This document shows, one piece after another, positions 3,064-29,777 of a DNA stretch of 64,000 nucleotides. A program made the translations under genes and the position numbers. Positions within the stretch are counted from its first letter, which is position 1, and every line of letters starts with the position of its first letter. Location of the stretch: positions 3,624-67,623 of the forward strand of contig CAZWLD010000005.1 of assembly GCA_964634685.1 (NCBI GenBank), in the 5' to 3' direction. The DNA comes from an uncultured Anaeroplasmatales bacterium. GTDB lineage: Bacteria > Bacillota_I > Bacilli_A > Acholeplasmatales > JAEDCM01. The notes below the pieces were generated by a model that searched no databases, was not told where the DNA came from, and saw nothing but the letters and a program-made list of their open reading frames with translations.

Positions 3064-3090
3064 AATCACCTCCTTAATCTCATATAAAAA

Positions 3091-8447: not shown

Positions 8448-8458
8448 AAATAGCCTCC

Positions 8459-9946: not shown

Positions 9947-9957
9947 TTTTTTACCTT

Positions 9958-10863: not shown

Positions 10864-11348
10864 AAAAAACACCTCTACTCCCAAGTATTATATCACATTC
10901 ATATGTAATATGAAACAAAAATAAAATTGAAATCCTTATCATATCCTATTTTAAAAGCTCTTTTCTTTACAAATGAGCATATAACGGAAACGAAGGGATA
11001 GGTGTTTTGTTTCCAATCGAAAATTTTTCGATGAAAAACATAATATTAGAGAAAATTGAAAAATTATTATGATAACCGATATTTTATCCATTTTTGGAAT
11101 TTGTTGTATCGCCTATTTTTTACCAAAATCAACCTCCCAGCAATTTTAGTGGAATCGCGGCTAGTATCCTTGCGGTAATTAATTCATCCTTAGAGGATAT
11201 TATCCGGCACCATCGTCGCATCGGCAATCATTAAGAAAATTATTGCGGTGATTATTGCCAAAATGGCCTTTAAATGGTCCCATGAAATCGAAAAAACAAT
11301 TGAAATGCCAAAAGGATAATAATATAATAAGACTAAAGGAGGGATTTT

Positions 11349-15386: not shown

Positions 15387-15410
15387 AAAAAAAAGGGTTG
15401 ATTTCAACCC
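15387..15410 (-). terminator. intrinsic terminator ending the seven-gene operon
   Basis: GGGTTG (15395-15400) pairs with CAACCC (15405-15410) around a 4-nt loop, followed on the minus strand by 8 T. It sits 5 nt after the stop at 15416. Confidence 0.6.
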
Positions 15411-15415: not shown

Positions 15416-17149
15416 CTATATTTTATTTAATGCATCGATAATATCATAGCTAATATTATCATTGACAGTATAATCACGAATATATTGAAGATACTCATCA
15501 CAAATATTCTTCATAATACCTTGAGCCTCTGTGCATTCATTTTGAATTCGCATCTTGATACGTGATCTCTTACGATTATATAGGAAAATATTGATCGCCG
15601 TGATAATGAAAAATCCACAGCCAACAAGGAAGCCTAAATAATAAAGCTCCATTTCTTTTTGAATCATAAGCATACCTAGGGCTGTACCAGCAATGGCGAT
15701 GATTAAGCTAAGTAATGTTGGAATAATCGAAACCTTGCGAAGAAGGGTATTCTTCTTTTTTTCATAAAAGCCAATTACCTTTGAATCCTCACGGTCAGGG
15801 TTTTCCAAATCACAGATATTTTCATAGTCGTTGATACGGACTCTTCTTTCGGATGTCATAAGCTTGCGATAATCCTCAAAATAGGCATTAGCGGCCTTAA
15901 TTACAATATCCTTAGTTAAAGAAAACATATTCCAAATTGCTAAATTGCTGATGTTCTTTTCCTTAGGATCAAAAATCCATCCAACCATTTGATTAACCAA
16001 ATTAAGTGGCGATTTTTCTTCCTTTTTCTTGGCCTCATATATTTCCTTTGCGAGTTCAATATTGCCTTTATTTTTAATAATTTCCTCTTGATATTCAATT
16101 TCCTCATAAAGCTTCTTTTCCTTTTCACTTGGAACGTCGACTATATGATCTAAATAATTTTTTAAATAAGAATTTTTATCATCATCCGAGAAATTATTGA
16201 TTTTATTAATAAATTCTAAAATAGCGGAATTATTTTTGGCCCTTGATAAAATCAAAGTCAATTTATCTACATCCAAGCAATAATTTGCTAAATTCTTGTA
16301 ATATGAGGTTTCAGGAACATCCAAATGCACAAAATAATTATTGACATAATCAACTAAAGAGGCTTGAGATTGCTTTGCTTCCTTGCTTTTTAGTTGAGTT
16401 TGTAGATATTCCTTAATATCAACACTAATCGCATCCAGATTTTTGTCAGATACCTTACCACTTAATAAGGATATTAGCATCAAAAAGGTATCATCATCAC
16501 TCTTTTGCATATATGACTTTTGATAACGCTTAAACCAAAGACCAGCTGCTTCCTCACGTCCCATCAATAAATTGAAAATCATGAAGAAAATCGAGGTGTT
16601 TTTTTCATCAAGTGTCAAAGCATTTTTTAAAGCCTTATTAGCTCCATGCTTATTATCCTTTTTCCAATATAAAATCGCAACACAAGCTGCCGTAAGCCAA
16701 TAATCTGGTGATTTTAATTGCTTCTTTTCAATGCTTTTTTCTAAAACATCATCGGATACAACCTCTAAATTAAAGCTATCAAGAAGGGCTAAAATAACTC
16801 TTCTTACCGTACGATATTCATCAAAGGAATAATAAAGGTCATCCTGAAGGGCACGAATTTTTTTATTCGCATCCTCCATATTTTTGAAGGAATGATATAT
16901 CCTTTCAATCTCTAATTCAAGCTCATAGCTGTTTAGCATCATATCTGTTGAGGCCTTCAAGATATCTTTTGATTTATCGAGCTCAGCCTCAACCTTTTTA
17001 TTATATTCAGCTATTTCATTATTAGCCTTATCAACGGAATTAGTGACAAATTCAATTTCACCCTTGATTGTCTCATTTTTTCGCAATATTTCTTTTAGTT
17101 GCCCCTCAAGACGACTAATTTCGGATTTTAATTCACTTACTTCAACCAC
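15416..17149 (-). CDS. operon gene 7: coiled-coil/helical-repeat protein with C-terminal 2-TM hairpin (paralogue of genes 2 and 3)
   Basis: 577 aa, GTG start 8 nt after GGAGG. N-terminal heptad-rich region, the block DYWLTAACVAILYWKK..ANKALKNAL..FFMIFNLLMGREEAAGLWFKRY shared with the paralogues, and two C-terminal hydrophobic helices. Confidence 0.7.
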   Translation of the reverse strand: MVEVSELKSEISRLEGQLKEILRKNETIKGEIEFVTNSVDKANNEIAEYNKKVEAELDKSKDILKASTDMMLNSYELELEIERIYHSFKNMEDANKKIRALQDDLYYSFDEYRTVRRVILALLDSFNLEVVSDDVLEKSIEKKQLKSPDYWLTAACVAILYWKKDNKHGANKALKNALTLDEKNTSIFFMIFNLLMGREEAAGLWFKRYQKSYMQKSDDDTFLMLISLLSGKVSDKNLDAISVDIKEYLQTQLKSKEAKQSQASLVDYVNNYFVHLDVPETSYYKNLANYCLDVDKLTLILSRAKNNSAILEFINKINNFSDDDKNSYLKNYLDHIVDVPSEKEKKLYEEIEYQEEIIKNKGNIELAKEIYEAKKKEEKSPLNLVNQMVGWIFDPKEKNISNLAIWNMFSLTKDIVIKAANAYFEDYRKLMTSERRVRINDYENICDLENPDREDSKVIGFYEKKKNTLLRKVSIIPTLLSLIIAIAGTALGMLMIQKEMELYYLGFLVGCGFFIITAINIFLYNRKRSRIKMRIQNECTEAQGIMKNICDEYLQYIRDYTVNDNISYDIIDALNKI

Positions 17150-17152: not shown

Positions 17153-18652
17153 TTAGTCCTCCTTTGAAGCATTTATCGCTCTTTCATTACCCCAGCTACG
17201 GCATTGCTCAATTGTCTCGGGATTTGAAATTGAAATCGGAATAATGCTCTTAATTTTCTTACAAACAAGATCAAAGGTAATGGCATCCTGTCCATTTAAA
17301 ATGGCATATTGGGCAACCTCCTTGATGGCGGTTTCAATATCCGCTGACGAATAGCCCTTGGTTAGCTCAACTAAGGTCTCAAGCTCGGAATCAAGGAAAT
17401 TAACATGAAGGCAACGATCACCATAATAAAGAATAACATTTTTTCGTTCCTCTTTATTAGGTAAATCAATGAAGAACATTTCCGAAAAACGGCCCTTACG
17501 GAAAAGTTCACTTGGAAGCTTAGTTACATCATTAGCGGTTGCTACAAGGAAAACGCGGCTTGTCGATTCCTGAAGCCAAAACAAAAATTGACCTAAAATT
17601 CGTTTACCCGTATCATTTCCCGAATCCGATGTTGATAAGGCCTTTTCGATTTCATCAATCCAAAGAACACAAGGCGAAACGTTGTCGATAAAATCCAAAG
17701 CCTCCTTCATCTTCTTTTCACTTTCTCCGACCCATTTATCGTAGACATTTCCTAAATCAAAGCGGAATAAAGGAAGCTCCCATTCAAGCGAAATCATCTT
17801 TGCCGATAGGGATTTACCACATCCTGGAACACCGGCAAGCAAAATTCCCTTTGGTGTTTCAAGGCTACGGGACGCAAGCACCTCATCAGGCGCAAAGAAG
17901 ATATTTTTCTTTTCCTTGAGCCAATCCTTAAGATTTTCTAGTCCGGCCACCTTGATAGTTGGATTAACCTCAACTAATTGAACGGTTGAAACACCCGAAT
18001 AAAGACGATTCTTTTGCTTTGTTAAATCGATAATATTATTTTTACCTAAGCCTTGTGGGGAAACTAAAGCGGCGGATAAAATATTCTCTAATTGAATCTC
18101 CGAAAAGCCTCTTAATAAGGTTGCGGCCTTGCGAGTTGCTTCATCATCCCAATTGATTTTAAAACGACCACTATAGGTTCGGATAAATTCATTAATTTGG
18201 ATAGCCCGTTCACTCATATCCGGAAAATCCAAAACGGTAATCATTCCGAAGCGAACCAAGCGACTCCAAACCTCATCCGGCGTTACAATGATAACGGTAC
18301 AGCTACTTTCCTTAGCTAAATATAAAACATTTAGTAAATCTCGGCTGTAGCTATTGTCACAATCAAGGTGTTTAATATCACCAATCGCAAAAATCATATT
18401 GTGGCGCTTTTTAAAGGTCTTAACCATATATCCAAGCGGATCACTATCGATATTAAGCGGTGTGCCCTCATTTTTCATATTATAGACCTGTTTAGCGTCT
18501 GTATAATACTCCAAATCAAGGTTTTTCTCATAGGCTAATTCTCCTAATAATCGTTCCACACGCTCTCTTTCGGCGGATTTTACGATAATTAACGGCGTTC
18601 TAGCACAAATATAATTAAATATTTCTTTTTTTACTGTACGAAAATTACTCAT
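17153..18652 (-). CDS. operon gene 6: classic-clade AAA+ ATPase, Ycf46-like architecture
   Basis: 499 aa. Walker A GVPGCGKS (aa 274-281), Walker B VLWIDEIEK, sensor-1 ATAN and SRH arginines FRKGRFS. The roughly 250-aa N-terminal region has no P-loop. GVPGCGKSLSAK...LPLFRFDLG...VGESE resembles Ycf46-type proteins. Confidence 0.8.
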   Translation of the reverse strand: MSNFRTVKKEIFNYICARTPLIIVKSAERERVERLLGELAYEKNLDLEYYTDAKQVYNMKNEGTPLNIDSDPLGYMVKTFKKRHNMIFAIGDIKHLDCDNSYSRDLLNVLYLAKESSCTVIIVTPDEVWSRLVRFGMITVLDFPDMSERAIQINEFIRTYSGRFKINWDDEATRKAATLLRGFSEIQLENILSAALVSPQGLGKNNIIDLTKQKNRLYSGVSTVQLVEVNPTIKVAGLENLKDWLKEKKNIFFAPDEVLASRSLETPKGILLAGVPGCGKSLSAKMISLEWELPLFRFDLGNVYDKWVGESEKKMKEALDFIDNVSPCVLWIDEIEKALSTSDSGNDTGKRILGQFLFWLQESTSRVFLVATANDVTKLPSELFRKGRFSEMFFIDLPNKEERKNVILYYGDRCLHVNFLDSELETLVELTKGYSSADIETAIKEVAQYAILNGQDAITFDLVCKKIKSIIPISISNPETIEQCRSWGNERAINASKED

Positions 18653-19147
18653 TTAATCACCTACTTTAAATATTTCGCCAAACGCTAATTTTTTCATGTC
18701 ATACAAAACATTAACATATTCCCGATTAACCCGTCCATTGAGTTCAAAAAATAGCGATAAATCCTTAAAGTATTTTTTAAGCTCCTGACATATTTGATCG
18801 GATAATTGCTTTCTTGTTTCAAAGCGAACAAATTCCAGATTTTGATAAAATGTTAAATTAACAAAATCATTTTTTAGTTTTTTTAAAAGTCTTGAAATAC
18901 CGATAAAATCATTGACCTCAATCATAAAATTAATATCCTTGTTAAATTTTTTTAGCTTTTTCGACATTGTAAAATTCAAATAGGAAACTAATTGATTTTG
19001 AAAAAGTCCAATAATATAGCTATCGTTTTCAAGCTTTCCTTGCCGAAGAATATTCGCATCATCCTCGGTCATTTCGTATTCCTTAAAATATTCAAAGGCC
19101 CGAAGCCATTCATTATATGTTGTTGGGGGATAAATAAACGCTTGCAT
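18653..19147 (-). CDS. operon gene 5: 164-aa hypothetical helical protein
   Basis: No recognisable motif. Its start shares one base with the stop of the 59-aa ORF (TAATG), and its stop abuts the AAA+ start (TAAATG). Confidence 0.6.
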   Translation of the reverse strand: MQAFIYPPTTYNEWLRAFEYFKEYEMTEDDANILRQGKLENDSYIIGLFQNQLVSYLNFTMSKKLKKFNKDINFMIEVNDFIGISRLLKKLKNDFVNLTFYQNLEFVRFETRKQLSDQICQELKKYFKDLSLFFELNGRVNREYVNVLYDMKKLAFGEIFKVGD

Positions 19148-19326
19148 TATTTAAAGAATGAAAAAGGTGGCTCTAAACTCCAAGCTGGAAGCTTTTTGTT
19201 CATTTCCTTAAGTTTTTCATTAGATAAATCGGTCGTCTTTTCATCATCATCGGCTTTAACAAGATTTTTCATAATATTTTTTTCTAATTTATCATTAATT
19301 TGAATTAAGTTTTCCTCATTTTTCAT
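19147..19326 (-). CDS. operon gene 4: unlisted 59-aa ORF
   Basis: Hand translation gives MKNEENLIQINDKLEKNIMKNLVKADDDEKTTDLSNEKLKEMNKKLPAWSLEPPFSFFK. GGAGG lies 8 nt upstream of the ATG at 19326. It falls below the track's 60-aa cutoff and fills the only apparent gap in the operon. Confidence 0.6.
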   Translation of the reverse strand: MKNEENLIQINDKLEKNIMKNLVKADDDEKTTDLSNEKLKEMNKKLPAWSLEPPFSFFK

Positions 19327-19338: not shown

Positions 19339-20937
19339 CTATAGATGCTCAATTAAGCTATAAAGCTCAGTTTTTAAAGCTTTATTTTCTTCAATTTGAC
19401 GCTTAGCCTCGGCTAATTCCGTCATTAACAATCTTAATACCTGCTGCTGTTGCTTGAGCTGATCCTTATATTTCTTTTCAGCTAAGCAAATTCTAGTGAT
19501 GAGAAGCACTCCAAAAACACCAGTTGCAATGTAGCTAAATGGTGATAATTGTAAGCCCCCAACAACACCTAAAGCTGCTAATAATAATAAAATTATATTT
19601 AAGACATTGGCATATTTAATACCAAATTTATGCTTTTCAAAGGATTCCTTCATGGCTTCTAGCTGTTCGCGTTCATCATCGCCATTGGAAATGGATTTAA
19701 AGCTTCCAATTTGAATCGCAAACTGCGTCGGATTCTTACTTTCAAAGGAGCTCGACCACTCATTTAAGGCTCCAAGGAACCAAACCTTTGTATTTTGGAA
19801 GGAGAATTTACGCACCTGCTCGTCCGTGTCGGCATCATATAACGCCCAGTTAACCATTTGTTTACCAATGTTATAGCCGCTATCACGAACATCCATCATC
19901 TCTGTGTATTGCTTCTTCGCAAATTCGGTATCACCATCATTTTTAACAATCATTTGGTAATACTCCTTTTGCTTACGTAATTCAACCTCATCCTTATCAT
20001 AATTGTTAATTAAATCCTCTAAAACCGCATCAACACGAACTTTGTAATTGGCATTAGTCTGATTTACCATCTCAACATCGACAGCCTTAATTAGTTCAAT
20101 TAAATCATTGTATTTTGCGGATTCCAAATAGGCAAACATAACATTATCATAATTTGAACAATGAGATTTAATGGTTTTGAAATTAAATTCCTTTTTGCTC
20201 TTGAGATTAACAAGATAATTTTTAAATGAATCAACAATTTCTGTGCTGATATCTTCATTTAAATTGATTTCCATTACCCAGTTATCAATAACCTGTTGTA
20301 CCTCAAATTCAAGCTCCTTATCCTTGCCAAACAAGCCATTAACATAAGCCTGAATAATGATAGCTGTTTCGCTTTGGATTTGGGTTGGGTCAAGCGTCTT
20401 CATATATTCGAAGAACCAGCGCTTGGCCGTTGGGATTCGATTAAAACGGATATTCATCAAACAGAAAAACAAAGATGTTTTAACTGGATCCTTTCGGAAG
20501 CTTTCGCTAACCGCATTATTAGCGAGATCCGGTTGGTCATTAACCCAAGCTGTGATAGCAATTAAAGCATAGCTTAGCCAATAACGACTTGAGGTCATCC
20601 ACAATTCTTCGGATAATTCCTCAATCGTACTGTTACGAATAAGGTTAATATCAAAGTCCTTAACAACACCCATAACGGTTCTTCTGACTTCAACATAATT
20701 ATTAAATTTCTCGCGAATAACCTGATCAATACGAATGATATTTTCATGAGCAATTTGCTTTTCCTCATTTAAAATCATTTCATTTTTAAATTTATTGACA
20801 CGATCATAAATTCGATCGGTTGTTTGCTTGATGGTGTTGGTCGCTTGGTTGACATTTTCAATCTTGACGTCAACCTTCGTTTTAAACCCTTCTAAGGTTT
20901 CATTCAATTGCTTGACTGCATTTTCTGAACTACTCAT
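19339..20937 (-). CDS. operon gene 3: coiled-coil/helical-repeat protein with C-terminal 2-TM hairpin plus terminal coiled coil
   Basis: 532 aa with an ATGA overlap with gene 2. Shared block RYWLSYALIAITAWVN..ANNAV..FFCLMNIRFNRIPTAKRWFFEYM, and two TM helices (VLNIILLLLAALGVVGG, YIATGVFGVLLITRICL). Confidence 0.7.
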   Translation of the reverse strand: MSSSENAVKQLNETLEGFKTKVDVKIENVNQATNTIKQTTDRIYDRVNKFKNEMILNEEKQIAHENIIRIDQVIREKFNNYVEVRRTVMGVVKDFDINLIRNSTIEELSEELWMTSSRYWLSYALIAITAWVNDQPDLANNAVSESFRKDPVKTSLFFCLMNIRFNRIPTAKRWFFEYMKTLDPTQIQSETAIIIQAYVNGLFGKDKELEFEVQQVIDNWVMEINLNEDISTEIVDSFKNYLVNLKSKKEFNFKTIKSHCSNYDNVMFAYLESAKYNDLIELIKAVDVEMVNQTNANYKVRVDAVLEDLINNYDKDEVELRKQKEYYQMIVKNDGDTEFAKKQYTEMMDVRDSGYNIGKQMVNWALYDADTDEQVRKFSFQNTKVWFLGALNEWSSSFESKNPTQFAIQIGSFKSISNGDDEREQLEAMKESFEKHKFGIKYANVLNIILLLLAALGVVGGLQLSPFSYIATGVFGVLLITRICLAEKKYKDQLKQQQQVLRLLMTELAEAKRQIEENKALKTELYSLIEHL

Positions 20938-22772
20938 TTAGTGCTCTCTCCTTCACTTTTAAATCGTTCGATTGTGGCTTTAAGAACCATCGCCTTTTTA
21001 TCCGCATCCTTATAGGCATCATACCATCTATCAAAATCCTTAATGGTATCCTCTAATTGTTTAACATATTTTTCCTTACGCTTATTGAAGGTTCGTTTTC
21101 TTCGTAAAATTCCAAAAATTGATAATCCACCGAAGATAACAGTTATTGCCATTCCCACGATTAAGGCAATAACATCATAATATACTGGTAAAAGGGCAAG
21201 AGTGGTAATACCACACAATGTTAGCATTAAAGAGATGATAATAAGTCGATTATCAAAGGCATACCAGAAAAAGGATTTTGAGTAATGCTTATTTAAATTC
21301 TTAAAGGCTTCCTCGTCATGTCCATATTGATAGGGAATATGGTATTCATCAATCACAAATTCATATTCCTGCTTGAGCTGACTTTGATAATTCTTTTGGA
21401 AATTTTGGGCTCCTTGGACTAAGCAATCATTAAGATAATTCATCGCAAAATGGCGAAGCCTGATATTTAGATTAACATCCTTATCAGCTATGGCCCATCT
21501 TAATAAAAGCTCATCAAGGCCAAATTTATGGTTGTTTTCATACAATAATTCGTAATTCTTGGTTGCAACCGTAATATCACCCTTAGCCTGAATAATGGCC
21601 TCGTGGTATTTTATCTTTTTGAAAATCTCATATTCATCATCGTCATAGGAATTAATTAAATCATATAAGGTGTTTTCAATTTTTCTTGCTAAATCGGTCA
21701 CATCATCCTCGCTTATGGCGTAAATTTCGGTGAAATAATTAGCAAGACAAAAATTCTTTTCCGCGAGGGTTAATAAATTCAACATATCTTGATAATTTGT
21801 ACAATAACGAGAAAGATTGATAAATTCTTCCTTAGTCGAATGCGGATAGGCATTCATATATTCCGTAAATTGATTTGTAACCTTTCTTTCATAGCCAACA
21901 TTAAGAATCTTGACCTTATTAATGATATCATCAATTTCCTTTGCAACCTGACTAGAGAAGCCTTGACTTTTTCCAAAGCAATTATATAAATATGCCTCTA
22001 ATAAATATTGCCATTCCTCTCCAACGGCCGAAATATCAAAGCGATCTAAATATTTTAAAAACCACATTCGAGCCGCATCAATTCTTGTAAATCGTAAATT
22101 AATTAATAAGAAATATAGACAAGCCCGATTATGATCTAAATTCAAGGCCTTTACAATTGCACGGTTAGCTGCCTCTTCTTCATTATTGGCCCAAAGCATT
22201 ACCGCTGATAAGGCATAGCTAAGCCAATATTCTGAATTTTGAAGAACGGTTTTTTCAACCTTCATTCGAAGATTTTCATTGTGAATAATATGATTATCTA
22301 GACCAATAACATAGCCTAAGGCAATTCTTCTGAGCTCATTATAGAAATGATACTTCGTATTATACATTTGTGTATATTCCGTTAAGCTTTTCGAAGCCGC
22401 ACTAATATTTTTTAATGAAAAATACGATACTGTTAGTTCATCCAATATATGAAATAATGATTCGGTATAGTCATTAATCTCCTTCATTGCCTTACCAGTT
22501 CCATCCATATCGGTCGAAATCTTGTCGCGAACATCCGAGGCATTAGCTGTAATTTTGATGGTTTCACCAACAACATTATCAAGCTCCTTCGATAATTGAT
22601 TTTGTAAAGCAATAGCCTCCTCAATTTTTTGTAAAAGAGAAGCCTTCTTTTCTTCTAGTTCTTCAATTTGCGCCTGTAATTGTTCTTCCTTAGATATTTC
22701 ATTGTTATCTAAAGCAACTACTTCATCATCGATTTGGGAAATTGGTTCTTTTTCAATTTGTTTATTTTCCAT
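20934..22772 (-). CDS. operon gene 2: coiled-coil/helical-repeat protein with C-terminal 2-TM hairpin
   Basis: 612 aa. Acidic coiled-coil N-terminus, shared block EYWLSYALSAVMLWAN..ANRAIVKAL..YFLLINLRFTRIDAARMWFLKYL, and two TM helices near the C-terminus. Confidence 0.7.
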   Translation of the reverse strand: MENKQIEKEPISQIDDEVVALDNNEISKEEQLQAQIEELEEKKASLLQKIEEAIALQNQLSKELDNVVGETIKITANASDVRDKISTDMDGTGKAMKEINDYTESLFHILDELTVSYFSLKNISAASKSLTEYTQMYNTKYHFYNELRRIALGYVIGLDNHIIHNENLRMKVEKTVLQNSEYWLSYALSAVMLWANNEEEAANRAIVKALNLDHNRACLYFLLINLRFTRIDAARMWFLKYLDRFDISAVGEEWQYLLEAYLYNCFGKSQGFSSQVAKEIDDIINKVKILNVGYERKVTNQFTEYMNAYPHSTKEEFINLSRYCTNYQDMLNLLTLAEKNFCLANYFTEIYAISEDDVTDLARKIENTLYDLINSYDDDEYEIFKKIKYHEAIIQAKGDITVATKNYELLYENNHKFGLDELLLRWAIADKDVNLNIRLRHFAMNYLNDCLVQGAQNFQKNYQSQLKQEYEFVIDEYHIPYQYGHDEEAFKNLNKHYSKSFFWYAFDNRLIIISLMLTLCGITTLALLPVYYDVIALIVGMAITVIFGGLSIFGILRRKRTFNKRKEKYVKQLEDTIKDFDRWYDAYKDADKKAMVLKATIERFKSEGESTK

Positions 22773-22815: not shown

Positions 22816-25716
22816 TTATAATCCTGATACCTTGCAACAAAACTCCATATGTTTGTCGATAAAGCCCTTTACGCCCTCTAGATATTTCTTAAAGCGTACA
22901 GCCTTTGCGCCAATTCTAATATCCTGATTGATATTTAAGTTAGCCTCAAAGAAGCTTCTTAGAATTCGCTCAGACATTTTGTCATCATCCTTATTTTTTA
23001 ATAAATAGGCCTGAGGAACATTAATCGAAATATAATCCTGCGCAAAAGGAATTTCGACACTGATATCACCTAGTGGATCTAAAAGATGACAGCTAAATTC
23101 AATAAAGTAATCATATTTCTTATCAAGCTTAGCATACATCAAGAAATTAGCAAAGGCTTTACCAGATAATTTAATATTCTTTATATACAAGCTTTGGAAG
23201 ATAACCTCATCAAATGGATAGGAATCGTTTAACCTGAGTAAATAATATTCAAGACATTCTGGCTTAACAGCTTGTCCATTTTCAACTAAAATACGGATAA
23301 CATTTCCATCAATTCTTTGATCCTTAATATAATCGATGAATTCCTGTGTTCCTAGAGTTAATTTACGATTACATAATTGTAAAACAACACGCTTCATCAC
23401 ACTAGGACTATCGTTGTTCTTCCTAAGATAATTAGCCAAAATAGTACTGAAATAAAGAGGATTCATATTTAAATCTAAAAGCATTTGCACAACCAATGGC
23501 TTTTGGTCACCATCATAATTTGAGGTGATGACATATCTCTCTAAAGCTGTAATTGGAATGTCTTGGACATTTTTAAATAAGACCTCTAATACTTTAATTC
23601 TTTCCTCGACTGAGCTTTGATTGAAGCAAAGATAGTAATTCATAATATTGTCATATGATTTTCTGGAAATATTGAATTCACATAGCTTTTCAAGCATTTC
23701 AATTTTCGAATCTAAGGTAAAATAAGGTTTTCGAAGAAATTCATTCATAGCTCGATAATCAAAATCATATGGAAGCTTTTTATCGATTAAAACGCTAATA
23801 ATTTTTAATCCAATTAAATCATTTTTACATTTGCCCGTTAAGACAAAATCTAAGATAAGCATAAACTGGTCATAAGAAATATCACTCGCAAGTAATTCAA
23901 AAACCGGCTCAACATATTTGGTATCATTTGCGCTGAATAAAACGTAGCGAATTAAAAATTCACTGTCGATAATGATTTGCTTCTTGCTAGCAATTAAAAC
24001 AACCTGAACCTTGGTTGAAACCTTATCAAGACTATTCTTTAAATAATCCTCGACAAGCTTTGAATCCGTAATATTATAGGCATCAGCCTTTAGTAAGATT
24101 TCAACTAAATCAAGCTTCGCATCGCCATCCTTGAAATTCTTTAAAATCTTCGTTAGAGTTAATTTTTTATCTTTATATTCTAAGCGGGAAACTAGACGGT
24201 AAATAATTCGATTGTAGCCTTCCTGTAAAAGGAAATCCAAGACAGCTTGGAAAACTGGTTCTTCGGTTATATTTTCATAATTGATAATATTTTGAATAAA
24301 AGACGTTCTTGTTTCATCACCTAATGTATAGAATAAAGATAAAAGCAATCCGTAGATATTATCGTCCTTAAGCATAACATAAATCGCCGTTTCATCGTCT
24401 GAAATAACCTCAACATTTTGGACAATATTGGTATTTAATTCCTTAATTTGGGATAAAAGAGCATCAACATTAGCATTTGGTTGATAGATTCTTCTTAATA
24501 AATAAGCCAAATTAACGATAGTTGTACAAATATGATTAGGATAATTTCTTTCACAATCAACTAAATAGGTTTTGGCATTTGGAAAATCCTCACAAGCAAT
24601 TGCCCCTAAGCAATTCTTGAGACTTTGGGTGTATTCTAAATCCGCCGCTACTGATGTTTCATCCTTACTAATGTTCGCTAAGGCCTGCTCCATCTTGGCA
24701 ATACGTTCACGTTGTTCCTTACGATACAATTCATCGCTTAATTCATCACGATGAATAATTTCATCTAATTCTTCCTTTAATTCTTTTCTTGTTTCTTCAT
24801 TTTCGGTCACATTCATTTGAACACATAACAGCAATTGTTCAAATTTTCCATACTGGTCAATGACCGCATCAATGGTGTTAATATGCTTAAAGCTATAGGA
24901 AAATTGCTTATGAGCATATTCGTCGATTTCGAAATAGATAAGGTTCTTGTTAATTCTTTGGGCATATTGAGCTTCCTTAACACATTCATCCGAATCTAAA
25001 AAATTCTTGGAGCCCACAATCAAAAAGCATTTCGAATTCTTGATTCCTAAGGCAATGTCATCATATCTTGTTTTCGGATTATGACCTAAATCTCTTGGGG
25101 CAATAAAGCATTTTAGCTGTTCATCCTCTAAAAGCTCTAAAATATCATAAGCCAAATCCTTATCCTTATCGGCATAGAGAATAAAAACATCGCGTTTATT
25201 TTCATCAATGACTAATTCCTGTTCTTTGCGCTTTGTTTCCTTAACTAAAAGCTGATACCAACGATTTTGAATTGATGGATCCTCAAAGGCTTTACCGATA
25301 AACTCCATCACATATTTATTGTAGCGGAGGGAGCATGTGACAATCATATGCTTTAAAACCTCGGCGATATTTTCATCCGTTGCATAAGAAAAATCCGCAT
25401 TTAATAAAAAGTCAACATAATTTGAATCGTCATAAAAAATGCGTGATGCATAGGCTTGATAATAATTGGCTAAAAAGTCATCTGGTAAGATTCCTAAAAT
25501 CTCATTTGAATAATCACTTATTTCTTGATAATCAAAGGCATTAACGGCATGAATAAGCTTAAAACGATATTCATTGATTCGTCTGGCCTCAATATCGGAT
25601 ACAGTTCCAAATTCACTTGCGAGCTTAATATTATTAGCTCGTCCACAATTATGACACGTTCCATCAGGAGCGAGATTTGAAAAGCCACAATGTGTACATT
25701 TTAGATAATGTCCCAT
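22816..25716 (-). CDS. operon gene 1: Zn-ribbon + TIR-domain protein with a roughly 680-aa helical C-terminal region
   Basis: 966 aa. CxxC-x10-CxxC at aa 7-24. TIR-like block at aa 176-285 (24862-25191): DVFILYADKDKDLAYDILELLEDEQLKCFIAPRDLGHNP..KCFLIVGSKNFLDSDECVKEAQYA..TIDAV, with E248 at the catalytic-Glu position. Confidence 0.75.
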   Translation of the reverse strand: MGHYLKCTHCGFSNLAPDGTCHNCGRANNIKLASEFGTVSDIEARRINEYRFKLIHAVNAFDYQEISDYSNEILGILPDDFLANYYQAYASRIFYDDSNYVDFLLNADFSYATDENIAEVLKHMIVTCSLRYNKYVMEFIGKAFEDPSIQNRWYQLLVKETKRKEQELVIDENKRDVFILYADKDKDLAYDILELLEDEQLKCFIAPRDLGHNPKTRYDDIALGIKNSKCFLIVGSKNFLDSDECVKEAQYAQRINKNLIYFEIDEYAHKQFSYSFKHINTIDAVIDQYGKFEQLLLCVQMNVTENEETRKELKEELDEIIHRDELSDELYRKEQRERIAKMEQALANISKDETSVAADLEYTQSLKNCLGAIACEDFPNAKTYLVDCERNYPNHICTTIVNLAYLLRRIYQPNANVDALLSQIKELNTNIVQNVEVISDDETAIYVMLKDDNIYGLLLSLFYTLGDETRTSFIQNIINYENITEEPVFQAVLDFLLQEGYNRIIYRLVSRLEYKDKKLTLTKILKNFKDGDAKLDLVEILLKADAYNITDSKLVEDYLKNSLDKVSTKVQVVLIASKKQIIIDSEFLIRYVLFSANDTKYVEPVFELLASDISYDQFMLILDFVLTGKCKNDLIGLKIISVLIDKKLPYDFDYRAMNEFLRKPYFTLDSKIEMLEKLCEFNISRKSYDNIMNYYLCFNQSSVEERIKVLEVLFKNVQDIPITALERYVITSNYDGDQKPLVVQMLLDLNMNPLYFSTILANYLRKNNDSPSVMKRVVLQLCNRKLTLGTQEFIDYIKDQRIDGNVIRILVENGQAVKPECLEYYLLRLNDSYPFDEVIFQSLYIKNIKLSGKAFANFLMYAKLDKKYDYFIEFSCHLLDPLGDISVEIPFAQDYISINVPQAYLLKNKDDDKMSERILRSFFEANLNINQDIRIGAKAVRFKKYLEGVKGFIDKHMEFCCKVSGL

Positions 25717-25741
25717 ATTAACAACTCCTTTTACTACCTAT

Positions 25742-25763
25742 TTTACCATATAATGATGGTAAA
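25742..25763. promoter_or_regulatory. perfect 8-6-8 palindrome upstream of the TIR operon (candidate operator)
   Basis: TTTACCAT-ATAATG-ATGGTAAA lies 26-47 nt upstream of the start codon at 25716 and overlaps -10-like hexamers. Confidence 0.35.
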
Positions 25764-25844
25764 TAAAAGTATTTATTGTCAGATTTATGAATTTTTTGAA
25801 GCGCTTGCATTATTAGTAAATGCTTATTACAAGCCATTTTCTAA

Positions 25845-25877
25845 AAGAGAAAAAAGAACTAGCACAAATCTAGTTCT
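25845..25877 (-). terminator. intrinsic terminator of rnj
   Basis: AGAACTAG (25855-25862) pairs with CTAGTTCT (25870-25877) around a 7-nt loop, followed on the minus strand by TTTTTTCTCTTTT. The stem includes the rnj stop codon. Confidence 0.6.
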
Positions 25878-27552
25878 CTGGTAAATCTGTCGAAATAATA
25901 ACCGGTATTGTAATTGGGTTACGCTTTGTTTCTTTATATAAATATTTATTTACTTCCGTTTTTAAATCATTCTTTAAATCAGCCCAATTAATATATTTAT
26001 TAACTAAATATTTTGAAACGACATTATCAAAAATGGTTTTAATATCATTATTTATATGCTCCATGTCCTTAATATGAACAAAGCCTTTTGAGACAATTTC
26101 TGGACCGGAAAGCACCTTTTTCGTTTTCGGTGAAATATTCGCAACAATCAATAAAACACCATCCTCAGATAATAATTCGCGATCTCTTAGGACAACATCA
26201 TTGACATCTCCAGCCATCGACCCATCGATTAAAACCTCATTAGCCTTAAGGTCAGCTATTGCTCCATCTAATACTTTATTATTAAAAACAAAGCCATTTC
26301 CAAGGTCCCCCATAATAATATTTTCATCATTATAGCCCATCTCTAAAGCAATTTTTCTGACATAATATTGATGGCGATATTCGCCAATAACGGGAAAAAT
26401 ATATTTCGGCTTTAAGATATTTATCATCATCTTGACCTCTTCACTTGTCGCATGACTGATTGGAAGCTTCGATTTATCAAATAATGTCACCTTAGCGCCT
26501 GTTCGATATAAAACATCAAGGGTACGCGCACTCATCTTCTCGGTTCCTTGAATCGGGAGCGTTAAAATAATGACATTATCACTTTCAGAAACATGTATTA
26601 GTCGATCAATTTTTTTGCACATTCTTTGAAGCATAAAGAAGGGCTCATGACGGTCTCCTGTCACTAAAACAACTAAATTATCATCTAAATTATCATTTTT
26701 TTCATCAATATAACGAAGATTAACCAAGACATCCTTGGGGATTTCTAAGTATCCTAGTTTAACAGCCACATCCACAATTCTTTGGGTTTTTCTTCCAATA
26801 ATCGCGATTTTTTTCTGATAAGAAATCGCTAAATCGATAACCTTTTGTATTCTTAATAAATCCGAACTAAACAAAGAAACAATAATTCTTCCACTCGCGT
26901 TCGAAAAAACACCATTAAGCTTGTGCATTAATTCATAGTGGTGAGCCGGATTTCCAAATTGATCAGCGCCATAGCTCTCAGTCATAAGACATAAAACCTT
27001 TTTCTTGGCAACCTCGTTTAACCTTGCAAAATTCGTTTGGTATTTCTTATCGACATTTTGATCAAAGGTATAATTTCCGGTATAAACAATACTTCCATCC
27101 TTCGTTTCAATAACAATCGCAATTGATTCCGGAATATTGTGAGTTGTCGCAAAAAAGGAAACAGAGGATGACTGAAATTTTAAGGTTGTATTATTATTAA
27201 CTGTTATTAATTTGACATCATCGAGCTTATAGTCATTCTCAAGTAGTAAATCACTTATTAGGGCATTAGTAAAGCTTGTACCATAAATAGGTACATCGAT
27301 TTCCTTCAACAAATGCGGAATAGCCCCGATATGCTCAATATGACAGTGGGTAATAAAAAGCCCACGAATTCGATTTTTATTTTCAACTAAATAACTAAAA
27401 TCTGGGATAATAGTATCTATTCCAAGAAGCTCAACCGAAGGATATTTAATTCCCGCATCCAAAATAAAAATATCTTGGTCAACCTCAACAACATACATAT
27501 TTTTTCCCTTTTCACCCAAACCACCGAGGGCGCCTGCAATAATTTTGCTCAT
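25870..27552 (-). CDS. rnj: ribonuclease J (metallo-beta-lactamase/beta-CASP family), variant motif II
   Basis: 560 aa with the RNase J layout. Motif II reads HCHIEH (27331-27348) instead of the usual HGHEDH. Confidence 0.85.
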   Translation of the reverse strand: MSKIIAGALGGLGEKGKNMYVVEVDQDIFILDAGIKYPSVELLGIDTIIPDFSYLVENKNRIRGLFITHCHIEHIGAIPHLLKEIDVPIYGTSFTNALISDLLLENDYKLDDVKLITVNNNTTLKFQSSSVSFFATTHNIPESIAIVIETKDGSIVYTGNYTFDQNVDKKYQTNFARLNEVAKKKVLCLMTESYGADQFGNPAHHYELMHKLNGVFSNASGRIIVSLFSSDLLRIQKVIDLAISYQKKIAIIGRKTQRIVDVAVKLGYLEIPKDVLVNLRYIDEKNDNLDDNLVVLVTGDRHEPFFMLQRMCKKIDRLIHVSESDNVIILTLPIQGTEKMSARTLDVLYRTGAKVTLFDKSKLPISHATSEEVKMMINILKPKYIFPVIGEYRHQYYVRKIALEMGYNDENIIMGDLGNGFVFNNKVLDGAIADLKANEVLIDGSMAGDVNDVVLRDRELLSEDGVLLIVANISPKTKKVLSGPEIVSKGFVHIKDMEHINNDIKTIFDNVVSKYLVNKYINWADLKNDLKTEVNKYLYKETKRNPITIPVIISTDLPEN

Positions 27553-27623: not shown

Positions 27624-28472
27624 TTACGGCTTTTTTTCATCCTCAATTATGATTTTATAATATTTATCGACAATATTCTCATCTAAAGTGACATGTGGGA
27701 GTCTAACATATGGCTTAATGATTCCAAGTTTTCCTAATAATGCCTTGATCATAACGGGGTTGGGCTCATAGAATAAAACCTGAAAACGAACGCGATATTG
27801 ATTAAATTCAATCTCATCATTAGCCTCAATATTTTTTTTGATTTCCTTAGTAAAGAGATGTGCAGCCACGCTAATAACTCCATCAAACCCCCGCTTATAT
27901 GCCTCATAAATTAAATAATCCTCACCAATATATAAAGCTAAATCCGTCTCATGCTTGATTCTTTCCATCAAATCAAAATTACATGAGGCTTCTTTTATTC
28001 CTTTAATATTCTCAACCATCGATAAGCTTTTAATCGTCTCAAAGCTAAGGCTTACTCCCGTTCTTCCTGGAATATTATAGAGCCAAATGTCGCGATTAGT
28101 GTGATATGCAACCTCCCGAAAATGCGCCTCTAGACCCTTTTGGGATGGCTTACTGTAATAAGGAACGACTACCAAATAGCCATCGCAATCAATGTCTTTG
28201 ATGTATTCTAAAAAATCAATGGTTGCTTTTGTATCATTTGTCCCAACACCAAAAATTAGTTTACATCTTTTATCAATCAAAATGCTCGCAAATTCATATA
28301 GCTTCCTTTTTTCCTTGAAGCTTAAGGTTGGCGCTTCGCCGGTTGTACCTCCGACGACAATACCATCAATTCCATCATCTAATAATCGTAAAATTAAACG
28401 TTTAAAATTCAAATAATCAATCGTTAGATCCTCTTTAAAGGGCGTGACAATGGCTGTATAAATGTCAAACAT
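27624..28472 (-). CDS. dapA: 4-hydroxy-tetrahydrodipicolinate synthase
   Basis: TAIVTPF...GIVVGGTTGEAPTLS...YNIPGRTG motifs, 282 aa. Confidence 0.9.
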   Translation of the reverse strand: MFDIYTAIVTPFKEDLTIDYLNFKRLILRLLDDGIDGIVVGGTTGEAPTLSFKEKRKLYEFASILIDKRCKLIFGVGTNDTKATIDFLEYIKDIDCDGYLVVVPYYSKPSQKGLEAHFREVAYHTNRDIWLYNIPGRTGVSLSFETIKSLSMVENIKGIKEASCNFDLMERIKHETDLALYIGEDYLIYEAYKRGFDGVISVAAHLFTKEIKKNIEANDEIEFNQYRVRFQVLFYEPNPVMIKALLGKLGIIKPYVRLPHVTLDENIVDKYYKIIIEDEKKP

Positions 28473-29067
28473 TAGGTACCTCCATTTTATGAATTATGAT
28501 TGGATTATTATTTTTTAAAAGCAAAAGAGCCTTCATATTAAAAGGAATATCATTTTGAATCACAAAGCTGTAAAAGTCATTAGCGGATTGTTTTTTGATT
28601 CCCTCATCAAAGAAGACAATTGGGCAATCTAATCGAACACCTAAGGCTACTGCCGATAGATCAGCTCCTTCCTCTCCAAGTAAAGTAAGCGAATTATGAT
28701 AAAGGCCAATGCCTCCGCTAATTATTAGACAATCATAGGAATTTAGATATTTCAAAAAATAATAAGGATCAATGCTTTCGATAATAGCGTCTAAATAATT
28801 TTTATTAGTATTTATTCCACTTTCATAAATATCTAAATAACGAACGTTGATGCCAATTTGTCTTAAATAATCTGTCAAATCAAGGGCTTCAAGAAATCCC
28901 TTAAAGGCCAAATATGATGCATACTCATTCGACAACAAGAAATCTTTTTCAATATCAGTAGATAATGGCACAACAATAATGGTTTTTTTACCTCTAATTC
29001 TATTAGCTAATAATTCACGATAAAGAGAGCTATTTACTTCATTGTTTTTAATTCTGATTACTTCCAT
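28465..29067 (-). CDS. degenerate amino-acid-kinase (aspartokinase)-like protein in the DpaB slot
   Basis: 200 aa, overlapping both dpaA and dapA. TLLGEEGADLSAVALGVRLDCPIVFFDEG resembles aspartokinase TLGRGGSDTTAVALAAAL..C.IYTDVDG. There is no KFGGTS-type N-terminal motif and no flavoprotein G.TGS motif. Confidence 0.4.
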   Translation of the reverse strand: MEVIRIKNNEVNSSLYRELLANRIRGKKTIIVVPLSTDIEKDFLLSNEYASYLAFKGFLEALDLTDYLRQIGINVRYLDIYESGINTNKNYLDAIIESIDPYYFLKYLNSYDCLIISGGIGLYHNSLTLLGEEGADLSAVALGVRLDCPIVFFDEGIKKQSANDFYSFVIQNDIPFNMKALLLLKNNNPIIIHKMEVPNV

Positions 29068-29777
29068 ATTATCTTCTCCAATGCTCTTTCTATAGCTTTT
29101 CCTAAAGAAATTCCCGCATCAATTGGCATCATATTAGGTATACCAAGAGAATGAATTACATCAATTTCCTCATCAAAGCCTTTTTTTGAGGCAATATCAA
29201 AAATCTTGCAGGTAGGAGCTCCTTGGATGATTTTTTTCGGAATTGTGTTGATTATTAAATCATAATCTAAACCATTTATTTGATTCAAATAATTTAAGTC
29301 CAAAGCTTCGATTTCAAGCCGATAATCAGTTCGATTATAGATATCGATATTTTTCGTGAAGGGTAAAAGAATTTTGGTAATTTCCTTTCCAGAATGACCA
29401 AAACCCAAGATCAATATTCTTTTATCCTTCAAAGAAAAATCAATATTATTAATAATAATCCCTAATAATCCTAAGGCCGTGTAATAAGAATTCTCATTAA
29501 GTAAGGCCTCATCATAATAGCTAACCAAGATCCCCTTATCCTTCATAAAATTTTCTAAATAAGTATTTTTTTGACCCGTAATTAAAATATCAAAGGGCTT
29601 TTCTTTGTATAAATCATCAATTCTTATATTTGTATTTTTGATAAAGCCTAAATCATTAGTTCCATTTATTGGTAGAATTACTATGTTGTCAGATTCTAAT
29701 CCCAGCTTGATATCGTATTTTTTTAAATAATCAATCGCATAAGGTAGTCTTTTATCCCCATTGTCAATTAAAACCAT
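29058..29777 (-). CDS. dpaA: dipicolinate synthase subunit A-like (SpoVFA/DpaA)
   Basis: Collinear with SpoVFA: NSYYTALG.., Rossmann motif ILILGFGHSGKE, INTIP, IFDIASKKG and LGIPNMMPIDAGISLGKAI. Confidence 0.7.
   Translation of the reverse strand: MVLIDNGDKRLPYAIDYLKKYDIKLGLESDNIVILPINGTNDLGFIKNTNIRIDDLYKEKPFDILITGQKNTYLENFMKDKGILVSYYDEALLNENSYYTALGLLGIIINNIDFSLKDKRILILGFGHSGKEITKILLPFTKNIDIYNRTDYRLEIEALDLNYLNQINGLDYDLIINTIPKKIIQGAPTCKIFDIASKKGFDEEIDVIHSLGIPNMMPIDAGISLGKAIERALEKIIWK

What the first reader, a model, noticed from the sequence alone, without database searches (positions are those of the whole stretch)
22816..25716. Gene 1 architecture: CxxC-x10-CxxC zinc ribbon, helical linker, TIR domain with candidate catalytic Glu, then about 680 aa of helical repeats
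Seen: C7, C10, C21 and C24 form a ribbon-type tetrad. Residues 176-285 (24862-25191) read DVFILYADKD / KCFIAPRDLGHNP / KCFLIVGSKNFLDSDECVKEAQYA / NTIDAV. This follows the strand-A DVFISY, BB-loop and helix-C S..C..E pattern of the bacterial TIR_2 family, and E248 aligns by eye with the NADase Glu. The rest (aa 300-966) is Leu/Ile/Tyr-rich and helical, with no enzymatic motif and no TM segment. Inference: an effector (TIR) fused to a large repeat region suited to ligand or protein sensing. The NTPase is supplied in trans by gene 6 rather than in cis as in NLR/Avs-type proteins.
Basis: partly seen in the sequence, partly recalled or inferred. Interest (0 to 1): 0.65.

Follow-up and report, generated by a model that had tools for sequence, protein, structure and literature searches.

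The report
TIR domain inserted in a scaffold subunit
Gene 1 is a real zinc-ribbon/TIR/helical-solenoid protein, but it is best read as a TIR-carrying version of a conserved subunit of a widespread, undescribed seven-to-twelve-gene membrane/AAA+ ATPase system, and its predicted NAD-cleaving glutamate is lost in close orthologs.

Summary
The 966-aa ORF (22816-25716, minus strand) has an invariant CxxC-x10-CxxC ribbon and a significant TIR_2 domain (aa 177-296, E=2e-13). It has no TM segment, and aa 363-966 form an all-alpha solenoid. Profile alignment puts E248 on the catalytic Glu of TcpB and TLR-type TIRs.

The interpretation needs revising in three ways.
- The C-terminal 600 aa is not a free-standing sensor array. 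It is homologous (E=3e-46) to a ~660-aa zinc-ribbon protein family that, in every context examined, sits upstream of a conserved core. That core is three paralogous membrane-anchored proteins, a ~60-aa protein, a ~160-aa protein and an AAA+ ATPase.
- Gene 1 is that subunit with about 330 aa (helical domain, TIR, charged helix) inserted after the ribbon. TIR-bearing forms are rare (7 of 121 representatives) and scattered in the family tree.
- The ATPase resembles Cdc48/VAT D2, not STAND, so the NLR/Avs analogy fails.

E248 is A or Q in three of four orthologs. The Trp four residues before it is Glu (E244) here, which predicts plain hydrolysis rather than cyclic-ADPR products, if the domain is active at all.

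Minimal core modules occur on plasmids and a phage satellite, which hints at a conflict system. No described system matched.

The parts
22816..25716 (-). Gene 1 CDS, 966 aa (stop codon 22816-22818)
   Evidence: ORF list and translation. Five full-length homologs at 55-99% identity.
25645..25698 (-). Zinc ribbon C7-x2-C10-x10-C21-x2-C24
   Evidence: The four Cys are invariant in 10 of 10 homologs. A Cys4 pattern is present in 70 of 73 family representatives.
25219..25626 (-). N-terminal helical (TPR-like) domain, aa 31-166; part of the inserted module
   Evidence: AlphaFold2 gives eight helices at pLDDT about 63-78. The equivalent region of P0171 and P0180 gives weak TPR hits. It is absent from the ~660-aa TIR-less family members.
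24829..25191 (-). TIR domain, aa 176-296
   Evidence: Pfam TIR_2 E=2.1e-13. PDB profile hits to TLR2/15, TcpB, AbTIR, Cat1 and MyD88 TIRs. It is the best-conserved part of gene 1 among orthologs, at 62-73% identity.
24973..24975 (-). E248 codon: the canonical catalytic-Glu position on helix alpha-C
   Evidence: Aligns with the Glu of TcpB 'WPARE' and TLR 'WCQYE'. It is E in the window species and P0002, A in P0003 and Q in P0004 and P0005. In the distant TIR forms it is E in four and Q in one.
24985..24987 (-). E244 codon: the position of the conserved alpha-C Trp (AbTir W204 equivalent)
   Evidence: Aligns with the Trp of TcpB and TLR. It is invariant Glu in the window clade and P0218, Asp in P0204 and P0207, and Trp in P0171 and P0180.
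24631..24828 (-). Charged helical linker or coiled coil, aa 297-362
   Evidence: AlphaFold2 gives one long helix (307-351) at low pLDDT. It is the least conserved segment, at 46-51% identity.
22819..24630 (-). Conserved alpha-solenoid C-domain, aa 363-966, shared with the ~660-aa ZnR family
   Evidence: BLASTP E=3e-46 to L013:6185-8188 over aa 373-951. An exhaustive profile search found 121 representatives, mostly ~660 aa, matched from about residue 50. AlphaFold2 pLDDT is 70-88. Foldseek gives only generic solenoid hits.
25717..25879 (-). Upstream control region: rnj terminator-like hairpin (25853-25879), weak promoter-like site (25753-25782), AAGGAG RBS
20934..22772 (-). Paralog A, 612 aa: coiled coil, helical domain, C-terminal TM hairpin
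   Evidence: Paralogous to g3 with E=1e-41. TM segments at about 508-557.
19339..20937 (-). Paralog B, 532 aa, the most conserved membrane component
   Evidence: More than 600 homologs at about 50% identity in Lachnospiraceae, Oscillospiraceae and a Chloroflexi MAG. AlphaFold2 pLDDT 76. TM hairpin at 438-487.
19147..19326 (-). 59-aa protein with a conserved C-terminal tail, KKLPAWSLEPPFSFFK
   Evidence: The motif is invariant across 8 loci. Related [LF]PxW[SD][LI]xP[PA] tails occur in the plasmid and satellite modules.
18653..19147 (-). 164-aa protein of unknown fold
   Evidence: Conserved in all clusters. Homologous to the 186-aa protein of the Komagataeibacter plasmid module, E=1e-7.
17153..18652 (-). 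Classical AAA+ ATPase, 499 aa (AAA at 270-396 plus lid; unknown N-domain at 1-230)
   Evidence: Pfam AAA E=4.5e-28. Closest solved relatives are VAT/Cdc48/p97 D2, E=5e-44. It is IetA-like but far below the NCBIfam IteA cut-off, 76 against 510 bits.
15416..17149 (-). Paralog C, 577 aa, with a TM hairpin
   Evidence: Paralogous to g3 with E=7e-24. TM segments at 468-525.
15395..15410 (-). Terminator-like hairpin that ends the seven-gene unit

Best explanation
Identity (shown). Gene 1 is the TIR-carrying variant of a conserved subunit with an N-terminal zinc ribbon and a ~600-aa alpha-solenoid. This subunit belongs to an undescribed multi-gene system. The core of that system is three paralogous membrane-anchored proteins, a ~60-aa protein with a conserved tail, a ~160-aa protein and a Cdc48-like AAA+ ATPase. 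In this lineage a module of about 330 aa has been inserted between the ribbon and the solenoid. The module is a helical TPR-like domain, a TIR domain and a charged helix.

Mechanism (inferred).
- The solenoid docks gene 1 onto the membrane/AAA+ complex.
- The TIR is the output domain. It is kept apart at rest.
- Assembly or AAA+-driven remodelling of the complex brings TIRs into head-to-tail contact.
- The TIR then hydrolyses NAD+ to ADP-ribose and nicotinamide. This would deplete NAD+ rather than make a cyclic-ADPR signal, and would arrest the cell as part of a conflict or abortive-infection type response.
For: Shown:
- TIR_2 domain and its alignment to solved TIRs, with E248 on the catalytic Glu.
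- Homology of the C-domain to the ~660-aa ZnR family.
- The same gene order downstream in all independent contexts examined: the window clade (L001-L007), Faecalicatena-type, a Chloroflexi MAG, L016, L018, L023 and L025.
- The seven genes are bounded by terminator-like hairpins.
- TIR forms are 7 of 121 representatives. They lie in at least four separate places of a C-domain NJ tree, next to TIR-less forms. This is the pattern of a swappable accessory module.
- The TIR is the best-conserved part of gene 1 among orthologs, at 62-73% identity.

Inferred:
- Hydrolase rather than cyclase. The AbTir W204-equivalent is Glu here, and all tested cyclic-product TIRs had an aromatic residue there.
- There is no ThsA-, SLOG- or Macro-like receptor gene in the operon.
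- Conflict role. Homologous minimal modules (paralog, small protein, ~160-186 aa protein, AAA) sit on a 26-kb plasmid beside an IS3 element and an integrase. They also occur on a megaplasmid and at the cargo end of Streptococcus satellite phage Javan368.
- The AAA is IetA-like.
- An XRE-type regulator is divergent from one TIR variant.
Against: - The catalytic Glu is A or Q in three of the four orthologous lineages, even though the TIR stays conserved there.
- The alpha-C Trp is missing.
- The AlphaFold2 model of the TIR region is unreliable (pLDDT below 50), so pocket geometry could not be checked.
- The cluster is inherited vertically at one housekeeping locus (dpaAB-dapA-rnj | cluster | ftsK-like). 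Its divergence is similar to that of the flanking genes, and there are no neighbouring defence genes. That is unlike a typical fast-turnover defence island.
- No PADLOC model matches any component except the AAA.
- No experiment bears on any component.
Confidence: 0.5

Rival explanations
1. The TIR domain is a non-enzymatic assembly domain, like MyD88 or MAL. It mediates head-to-tail oligomerisation of the solenoid subunit on the membrane complex, and NAD+ is not cleaved.
For: - E248 is replaced by A or Q in P0003, P0004 and P0005, while the TIR remains the best-conserved part of the protein.
- The alpha-C Trp is absent in the whole clade.
- The PDB profile hits include scaffold TIRs (TLR2/15, MyD88, MAL) as strongly as the enzymes.
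Against: - The Glu is retained in the window species, P0002 and four of the five distant TIR forms. Two of those (P0171, P0180) have the full canonical W-x3-E motif.
- All four sequences that lack Glu at +6 keep Glu at +2, so an acidic residue is always present on that helix face.
- Bacterial TIRs characterised so far are enzymes (general knowledge).
Confidence: 0.25
2. Gene 1 is an autonomous effector-sensor: the TIR is the effector, the C-terminal repeats bind a ligand or phage protein directly, and an NTPase supplied in trans plays the role of the NLR/Avs switch.
For: - Foldseek hits to alpha-solenoids that bind proteins or cargo, such as karyopherins, UNC-45 and Ski3.
- The solenoid evolves faster than the AAA and paralog B, at 55-65% against 78-87% identity.
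- An ATPase gene is in the operon.
Against: - The C-domain is a single conserved family with fixed partner genes. Most members have no effector domain at all.
- The ATPase is Cdc48/VAT D2-like, not STAND.
- The core with the ATPase exists without any member of the gene 1 family in the plasmid and satellite modules.
Confidence: 0.12
3. The cluster is a physiological envelope or membrane-remodelling (or sporulation-linked) machine rather than an immune system, and the TIR has been co-opted for regulation of NAD or of assembly.
For: - Stable synteny at one chromosomal site, next to dpaA/dpaB, dapA, rnj and an ftsK-like gene, across lineages with only 77-80% identical RNase J.
- Paralog B and the AAA are as conserved as RNase J or more so.
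- The full clusters begin with an SPFH(Band_7_1)+zinc-ribbon protein of the YdjI kind, which is linked to PspA envelope-stress operons in Firmicutes.
- No defence genes lie nearby.
Against: - TIR modules are gained or lost patchily.
- Minimal modules sit on a phage satellite and on small plasmids beside IS and integrase genes.
- The family is rare and has no Pfam coverage, which would be unusual for a core machine.
Confidence: 0.2

Closest known systems
Bacterial TIR NADases (AbTir, Brucella TcpB/BtpA, PdTIR; Pfam TIR_2 PF13676)
   Same: - Significant TIR_2 profile match.
- Strand-A D-x-F-I-x-Y motif.
- An alpha-C helix with Glu at the catalytic position (E248).
- PDB profile hits to TcpB (1.6e-5) and AbTIR (7e-5).
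   Different: - The Trp four residues before the Glu is Glu here.
- The catalytic Glu is lost in three orthologs.
- The domain is embedded in the middle of a 966-aa protein, between a ZnR/TPR-like region and a ~600-aa solenoid. The known proteins have a coiled coil plus TIR instead.
Thoeris (ThsB TIR sensor plus ThsA effector)
   Same: It is a TIR-containing operon. There is a weak PADLOC ThsB hit (E=0.0058).
   Different: - There is no ThsA, SIR2, SLOG or Macro receptor gene.
- There is no aromatic residue at the cyclase position, so a cADPR-isomer signal is unlikely.
- The partner genes are entirely different.
STAND/NLR-like TIR proteins (Avs, bacterial TIR-NLR, plant TNLs)
   Same: The same overall logic: a TIR joined to a large C-terminal helical repeat region. 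Foldseek lists Avs3 among weak solenoid hits (E=0.014).
   Different: There is no NB-ARC, NACHT or STAND domain in cis. The operon's ATPase is a classical AAA of the Cdc48 D2 type.
IetAS (Gao et al. 2020): AAA ATPase IetA plus protease IetS
   Same: The operon's AAA hits PADLOC IetA models (E=1.8e-29) and NCBIfam IteA_antiphage.
   Different: It scores 76 bits against a cut-off of 510. There is no S8 protease. The partners are membrane paralogs, a small tail-motif protein and the ZnR-solenoid.
B. subtilis pspA-ydjGHI type envelope-stress operons (SPFH plus zinc-ribbon YdjI)
   Same: Full-length versions of the cluster in Clostridia start with a Band_7_1 plus double-zinc-ribbon protein. The zinc-ribbon theme is shared.
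   Different: No PspA, YdjG or YdjH homologs were detected. The window's version lacks the SPFH gene altogether.

Membership tests
TIR domain superfamily (Pfam TIR_2 PF13676) | Profile match above the curated gathering score | tested here: met
   51.3 bits against a cut-off of 28, E=2.1e-13, aa 177-296, covering the full 122-position profile. Orthologs carry the same precomputed domain.
Enzymatic (NADase) TIRs | Catalytic Glu on helix alpha-C (AbTir E208, SARM1 E642, TcpB equivalent) | tested here: met
   E248 aligns with the Glu of TcpB 'WPARE' and TLR 'WCQYE' in hmmsearch alignments. It is not conserved in orthologs, where it is A, Q and Q.
cADPR-isomer-producing TIRs (AbTir, ThsB, plant TIRs) | Aromatic residue (usually Trp) four residues before the catalytic Glu | tested here: not met
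   The position is E244. Manik et al. found aromatic residues there in all TIRs that make cyclic products, and W204A lowers 2'cADPR from 93% to 24%.
Enzymatic (NADase) TIRs | NAD+ cleavage activity; intact BB-loop self-association | not testable with these tools
   The AlphaFold2 model of aa 167-293 has pLDDT below 50. A biochemical assay is needed.
STAND / NLR / Avs | STAND NTPase (NACHT/NB-ARC type) coupled to the effector and the repeats | tested here: not met
   There is no such domain in gene 1. The operon's ATPase is a classical AAA, closest to VAT/Cdc48 D2. Its nSTAND3 score of 20.1 is below the 27.2 cut-off.
Thoeris | ThsA-type effector (SIR2 or TM with SLOG/Macro) next to the TIR gene | tested here: not met
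   There are no such Pfam or PADLOC hits in the seven genes.
IetAS | IetA equivalog plus IetS subtilase | tested here: not met
   NCBIfam IteA gives 76 bits against 510. There is no protease gene.
Unnamed ZnR-alpha-solenoid family (~660 aa) of the SPFH/AAA+ cluster | N-terminal Cys4 ribbon, a homologous ~600-aa C-domain, and a position upstream of the A-B-small-~160-AAA-C core | tested here: met
   The ribbon is present in 70 of 73 representatives. C-domain similarity is E=3e-46 by BLASTP and 3e-78 by profile. The gene order is the same in all contexts read.

The most novel reading that the evidence does not exclude
The seven-gene unit is one form of a previously undescribed class of membrane-associated conflict system. 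It would be driven by a Cdc48-like AAA+ unfoldase and built on three paralogous membrane-inserting proteins plus a small protein with a conserved tail. The ZnR-solenoid subunit would be the slot into which effector modules such as the TIR are inserted. Within it, the window-clade TIR would use a relocated acidic residue (E244, one helical turn before the canonical Glu). That would explain why orthologs with Q or A at position 248 still keep a highly conserved TIR.
Probability: 0.25. Interest if true: 0.8.

Novelty: new variant of a known kind. Interest (0 to 1): 0.62.

Why it matters
TIR domains are the shared enzymatic core of bacterial, plant and animal immunity. Each new way of wiring one to a sensor or machine has so far revealed a new signalling logic.

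Here the TIR is grafted into a subunit of a large gene cluster. The cluster is well conserved: more than 600 clusters of paralog B at about 50% identity across Clostridia, Bacilli-like lineages and a Chloroflexi MAG. It is also completely unannotated. Five of its seven proteins have no Pfam family, and no paper was found in the searches made here. Reduced versions ride on plasmids and a phage satellite.

If the cluster is a defence system, it would be a new multi-component class with an unfoldase at its heart. The natural E/Q/A variation at the catalytic position gives a ready-made test of whether TIR catalysis is needed.

Tried and rejected
- phmmer of full-length gene 1 against PDB sequences found nothing, even at E<=1. 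Only a profile of the TIR sub-alignment worked.
- NCBIfam has no family for gene 1.
- PADLOC gave only sub-threshold TIR hits (PDC-S66 at 1.7e-4, ThsB at 5.8e-3) and nothing for five of the partners.
- A genome-contig scan with the gene 1 alignment found no relative, so the clade is not among the GTDB representatives. RNase J placed the organism only loosely: 51-53% identity to Turicibacter and Anaeroplasmataceae MAGs.
- Cluster look-ups gave no organism names.
- A search with the ZnR-helical-TIR module alone found only a fragment of the same protein. There is therefore no evidence that this module is shared with other systems.
- The AlphaFold2 full-length model is unusable for the TIR (pLDDT below 50), so the E244/E248 geometry could not be examined.
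- Foldseek with gene 1 gave only generic solenoids with TM 0.1-0.2.
- Foldseek with paralog B gave nothing significant. Weak, non-significant similarity to TPR proteins and to tripartite alpha-pore-forming toxins (SmhB, AhlB, MakA; E of 0.2 or more) was noted but not relied on.
- Gene 1 has no tblastn match in the plasmid or phage collections.
- Six literature searches, plus targeted text searches inside the PSP-partners paper and the Kaur et al. conflict-systems paper, found no description of this cluster.
- I considered whether the downstream FtsK-like gene belongs to the unit and rejected it. It is the positional ortholog of Turicibacter FtsK, and in L004 an LRR gene follows the cluster instead.
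Full report
**1. What is in the sequence**

The ORF at 22816-25716 on the minus strand encodes 966 aa. It has its own AAGGAG ribosome-binding site, and a terminator-like hairpin closes the upstream RNase J gene.

This covers C7, C10, C21 and C24, DVFILYADKD at 176, KCFIAPRDLGHNP at 202, KCFLIVGSKNFLDSDECVKEAQYA at 229 and NTIDAV at 280.

The highest 19-residue Kyte-Doolittle score is 1.29, so there is no TM segment.

**2. TIR domain**

- Pfam TIR_2 matches aa 177-296 over the whole 122-position profile. E is 2.1e-13 and the score is 51.3 bits against a cut-off of 28. Pfam TIR also matches, at E=4e-6.
- A single-sequence search of PDB sequences found nothing.
- A profile built from the TIR region of ten family members hit solved TIRs: TLR2/15 (4e-7), TRR-2, Brucella TcpB (1.6e-5), AbTIR (7e-5), Cat1 and MyD88.
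- In the printed alignments, profile position 81 (window E248) pairs with the Glu of TcpB 'WPARE' and TLR 'WCQYE'. Position 77 (E244) pairs with their Trp.

**3. The catalytic position is not conserved**

Only five full-length homologs exist among 5.8 billion clustered proteins. The table gives the residue at position 248, or its aligned equivalent, and at position 244, which is the Trp position.

| Sequence | Position 248 | Position 244 |
|---|---|---|
| Window species (six sequence variants) | E | E |
| P0002 | E | E |
| P0003 | A | E |
| P0004 | Q | E |
| P0005 | Q | E |
| P0171, P0180 (distant) | E | W |
| P0204, P0207 (distant) | E | D |
| P0218 (distant) | Q | E |

- Every sequence without Glu at position 248 has Glu at position 244.
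- The TIR is nevertheless the best-conserved part of gene 1 among orthologs, at 62-73% identity. The rest is at 46-65%.
- In the Manik et al. preprint, AbTir E208A is dead. W204, four residues before E208, is needed for cyclisation, and all tested TIRs that make cyclic products had an aromatic residue there.
- So if the window TIR is active, it is predicted to be a plain NAD+ hydrolase. Whether the Q/A orthologs are dead, or use E244 instead, is open.

**4. The rest of gene 1**

AlphaFold2 was run with only five sequences. Mean pLDDT is 68.6.

| Residues | Prediction | pLDDT |
|---|---|---|
| 31-166 | helical domain | 63-78 |
| 167-293 (TIR) | unusable | below 50 |
| 307-351 | one long charged helix | low |
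| 360-966 | about 40 short helices, with a small beta element at 886-941 | 70-88 |

Foldseek against the PDB returns only generic alpha-solenoids (transportin-3, UNC-45, Ski3), with TM scores of 0.1-0.2. 'Helical repeats' is therefore a fair description.

**5. The C-terminal region is a known-partnered family, not an orphan repeat array**

- Residues 373-951 align with a 667-aa protein of a Faecalicatena-type locus at E=3e-46. That protein also begins with a zinc ribbon.
- An exhaustive profile search of 1.84 billion representatives found 121 family members. Almost all are about 660 aa and match from about residue 50 onward.
- 70 of 73 full-length members have an N-terminal Cys4 pattern.
- Seven representatives carry a TIR between the ribbon and the solenoid, including one fragment.
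- Gene 1 is thus that subunit with about 330 aa inserted.
- In a rough NJ tree of the C-domain, TIR forms lie in at least four places among TIR-less forms.
- Two module types are visible. The window clade and P0204/P0207/P0218 form one type. P0171 and P0180, with a canonical W-x3-E, form the other. This is a patchy gain-or-loss pattern.

**6. Gene context**

Gene 1 heads a seven-gene unit bounded by terminator-like hairpins.

| Gene | Coordinates | Product |
|---|---|---|
| Gene 1 | 22816-25716 | ZnR-TIR-solenoid, 966 aa |
| Paralog A | 20934-22772 | 612 aa |
| Paralog B | 19339-20937 | 532 aa |
| Small ORF | 19147-19326 | 59 aa |
| Unnamed | 18653-19147 | 164 aa |
| AAA+ | 17153-18652 | 499 aa |
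| Paralog C | 15416-17149 | 577 aa |

- A, B and C are paralogs (E=1e-41 and 7e-24). Each has a C-terminal TM hairpin.
- The AAA is closest to VAT/Cdc48/p97 D2 (E=5e-44). It is IetA-like only below threshold.
- The four orthologous lineages keep the identical order at the identical site, dpaA-dpaB-dapA-rnj | cluster | ftsK-like.
- Divergence there is similar to that of the flanking genes: rnj 77-80%, dapA 61-65%, gene 1 56-65%, paralog B 78-82% and the AAA 82-87%.
- In Turicibacter, rnj is followed directly by ftsK. The cluster is therefore a clade-specific but vertically kept insertion.

**7. Wider distribution**

- Paralog B has more than 600 homologs at about 50% identity over its full length. 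They come from Lachnospiraceae, Oscillospiraceae and a Chloroflexi MAG.
- Their loci share the core A-B-small-~160-AAA-C. This is usually preceded by a Band_7_1 (SPFH) plus double-zinc-ribbon protein, a ~230-aa protein and the ZnR-solenoid. Some also have a HerA-like ATPase and two more genes.
- The window has no SPFH, ~230-aa or HerA homolog.
- Reduced modules (one paralog, small protein, 154-186 aa protein, AAA) occur in three further places. These are a 26-kb Komagataeibacter plasmid beside an IS3 element and an integrase, a Comamonas megaplasmid, and the end of Streptococcus satellite phage Javan368.
- The 164-aa protein matches its plasmid counterpart at E=1e-7.
- The small protein keeps a tail motif, [LF]PxW[SD][LI]xP[PA], across phyla.
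- Paralog B modelled well (pLDDT 76, pTM 0.68) but has no significant structural neighbour.

**8. Mechanism**

Shown:
- Gene 1 is a soluble ZnR/TPR-like/TIR/solenoid protein.
- Its solenoid family is genetically locked to a membrane-anchored, AAA+-containing core.

Inferred:
- The solenoid docks on that core.
- The TIR is an accessory output that becomes active when assembly or AAA+ remodelling brings TIRs together.
- The output is NAD+ hydrolysis.

I put about 0.5 on this overall. The architecture is near-certain, catalysis is about 0.4-0.5, and a conflict role is about 0.5.

Main rivals:
- A non-catalytic scaffold TIR (0.25). This is supported by the E-to-Q/A replacements.
- A physiological envelope machine (0.2). 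This is supported by the stable synteny and the YdjI-like SPFH partner.
This is contradicted by the ATPase type and by the conserved partnership of the solenoid.

**9. Comparison with the known, and novelty**

- Gene 1 passes membership of the TIR superfamily and has the catalytic-Glu feature.
- It fails the aromatic-residue feature of cyclase TIRs.
- It fails the defining features of STAND/NLR, Thoeris and IetAS.
- No PADLOC model covers the partners, apart from the IetA models that match the AAA.
- Six literature searches, plus targeted text searches inside two comparative-genomics papers, found no description of the cluster.
- I class gene 1 as a new variant of a known kind: a TIR effector in a new architecture and context.
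- The surrounding system may be a new kind altogether, but that is not yet demonstrated.

Noticed in passing
window 19147-19326 (-): A 59-aa ORF between paralog B and the 164-aa gene. Its body is acidic and poorly conserved (possibly disordered; not tested), but its C-terminal tail (ERLKEMNKKLPxWSLEPPFSFLK) is almost invariant across Bacilli-like, Clostridia and Chloroflexi loci. Plasmid and satellite versions keep [LF]PxW[SD][LI]xP[PA]. It may be a recognition tail for the AAA+ ATPase.
   Followed up: partly
window 20934-22772, 19339-20937, 15416-17149 (-): Three paralogous proteins of 530-610 aa, each with a long N-terminal helix, a TPR-like region and a C-terminal hydrophobic hairpin. Foldseek with the paralog B model gave only weak, non-significant hits to tripartite alpha-pore-forming toxins (SmhB, AhlB, MakA; E of 0.2 or more).
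   Followed up: partly
L020 (Streptococcus satellite phage Javan368) 7944-11924; L021 (Komagataeibacter plasmid) 1106-5629; L022 (Comamonas plasmid) 7444-11979: Reduced four-to-five-gene modules homologous to the core (paralog, small protein, 154-186 aa protein, AAA) sit on mobile elements. In Javan368 the small ORF (L020 9706-9882) is not annotated.
   Followed up: partly
window 13329-15002 (-): The FtsK/SpoIIIE-like gene downstream of the cluster is the positional ortholog of Turicibacter FtsK (E=9e-26). It is short (557 against 760 aa), scores only 32 bits on the Pfam FtsK_SpoIIIE model, and has a degenerate Walker A (GSLNTGIKT where FtsK has GATGSGKS). It is also the least conserved gene of the neighbourhood for which this was measured in two relatives, at 43-45% identity.
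   Followed up: partly
L015 3019-8202; L016 4091-8178: Some Clostridia and Chloroflexi versions of the cluster carry an extra HerA/FtsK-like ATPase (902-910 aa) and two unannotated genes between the ZnR-solenoid gene and paralog A.
   Followed up: no
window 27624-29777 (-); L004 668-2487: The upstream neighbours look like dpaA/dpaB (spoVF-like) and dapA, and a relative carries spoVAC/D/E. This suggests the host is a spore-forming, low-GC (about 33%) Bacilli-like bacterium only distantly related to Turicibacter.
   Followed up: no
L023 338-679: One distant TIR-bearing variant (P0180) has a divergently oriented XRE-type HTH gene immediately upstream. This arrangement is often seen with regulated accessory systems.
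   Followed up: no
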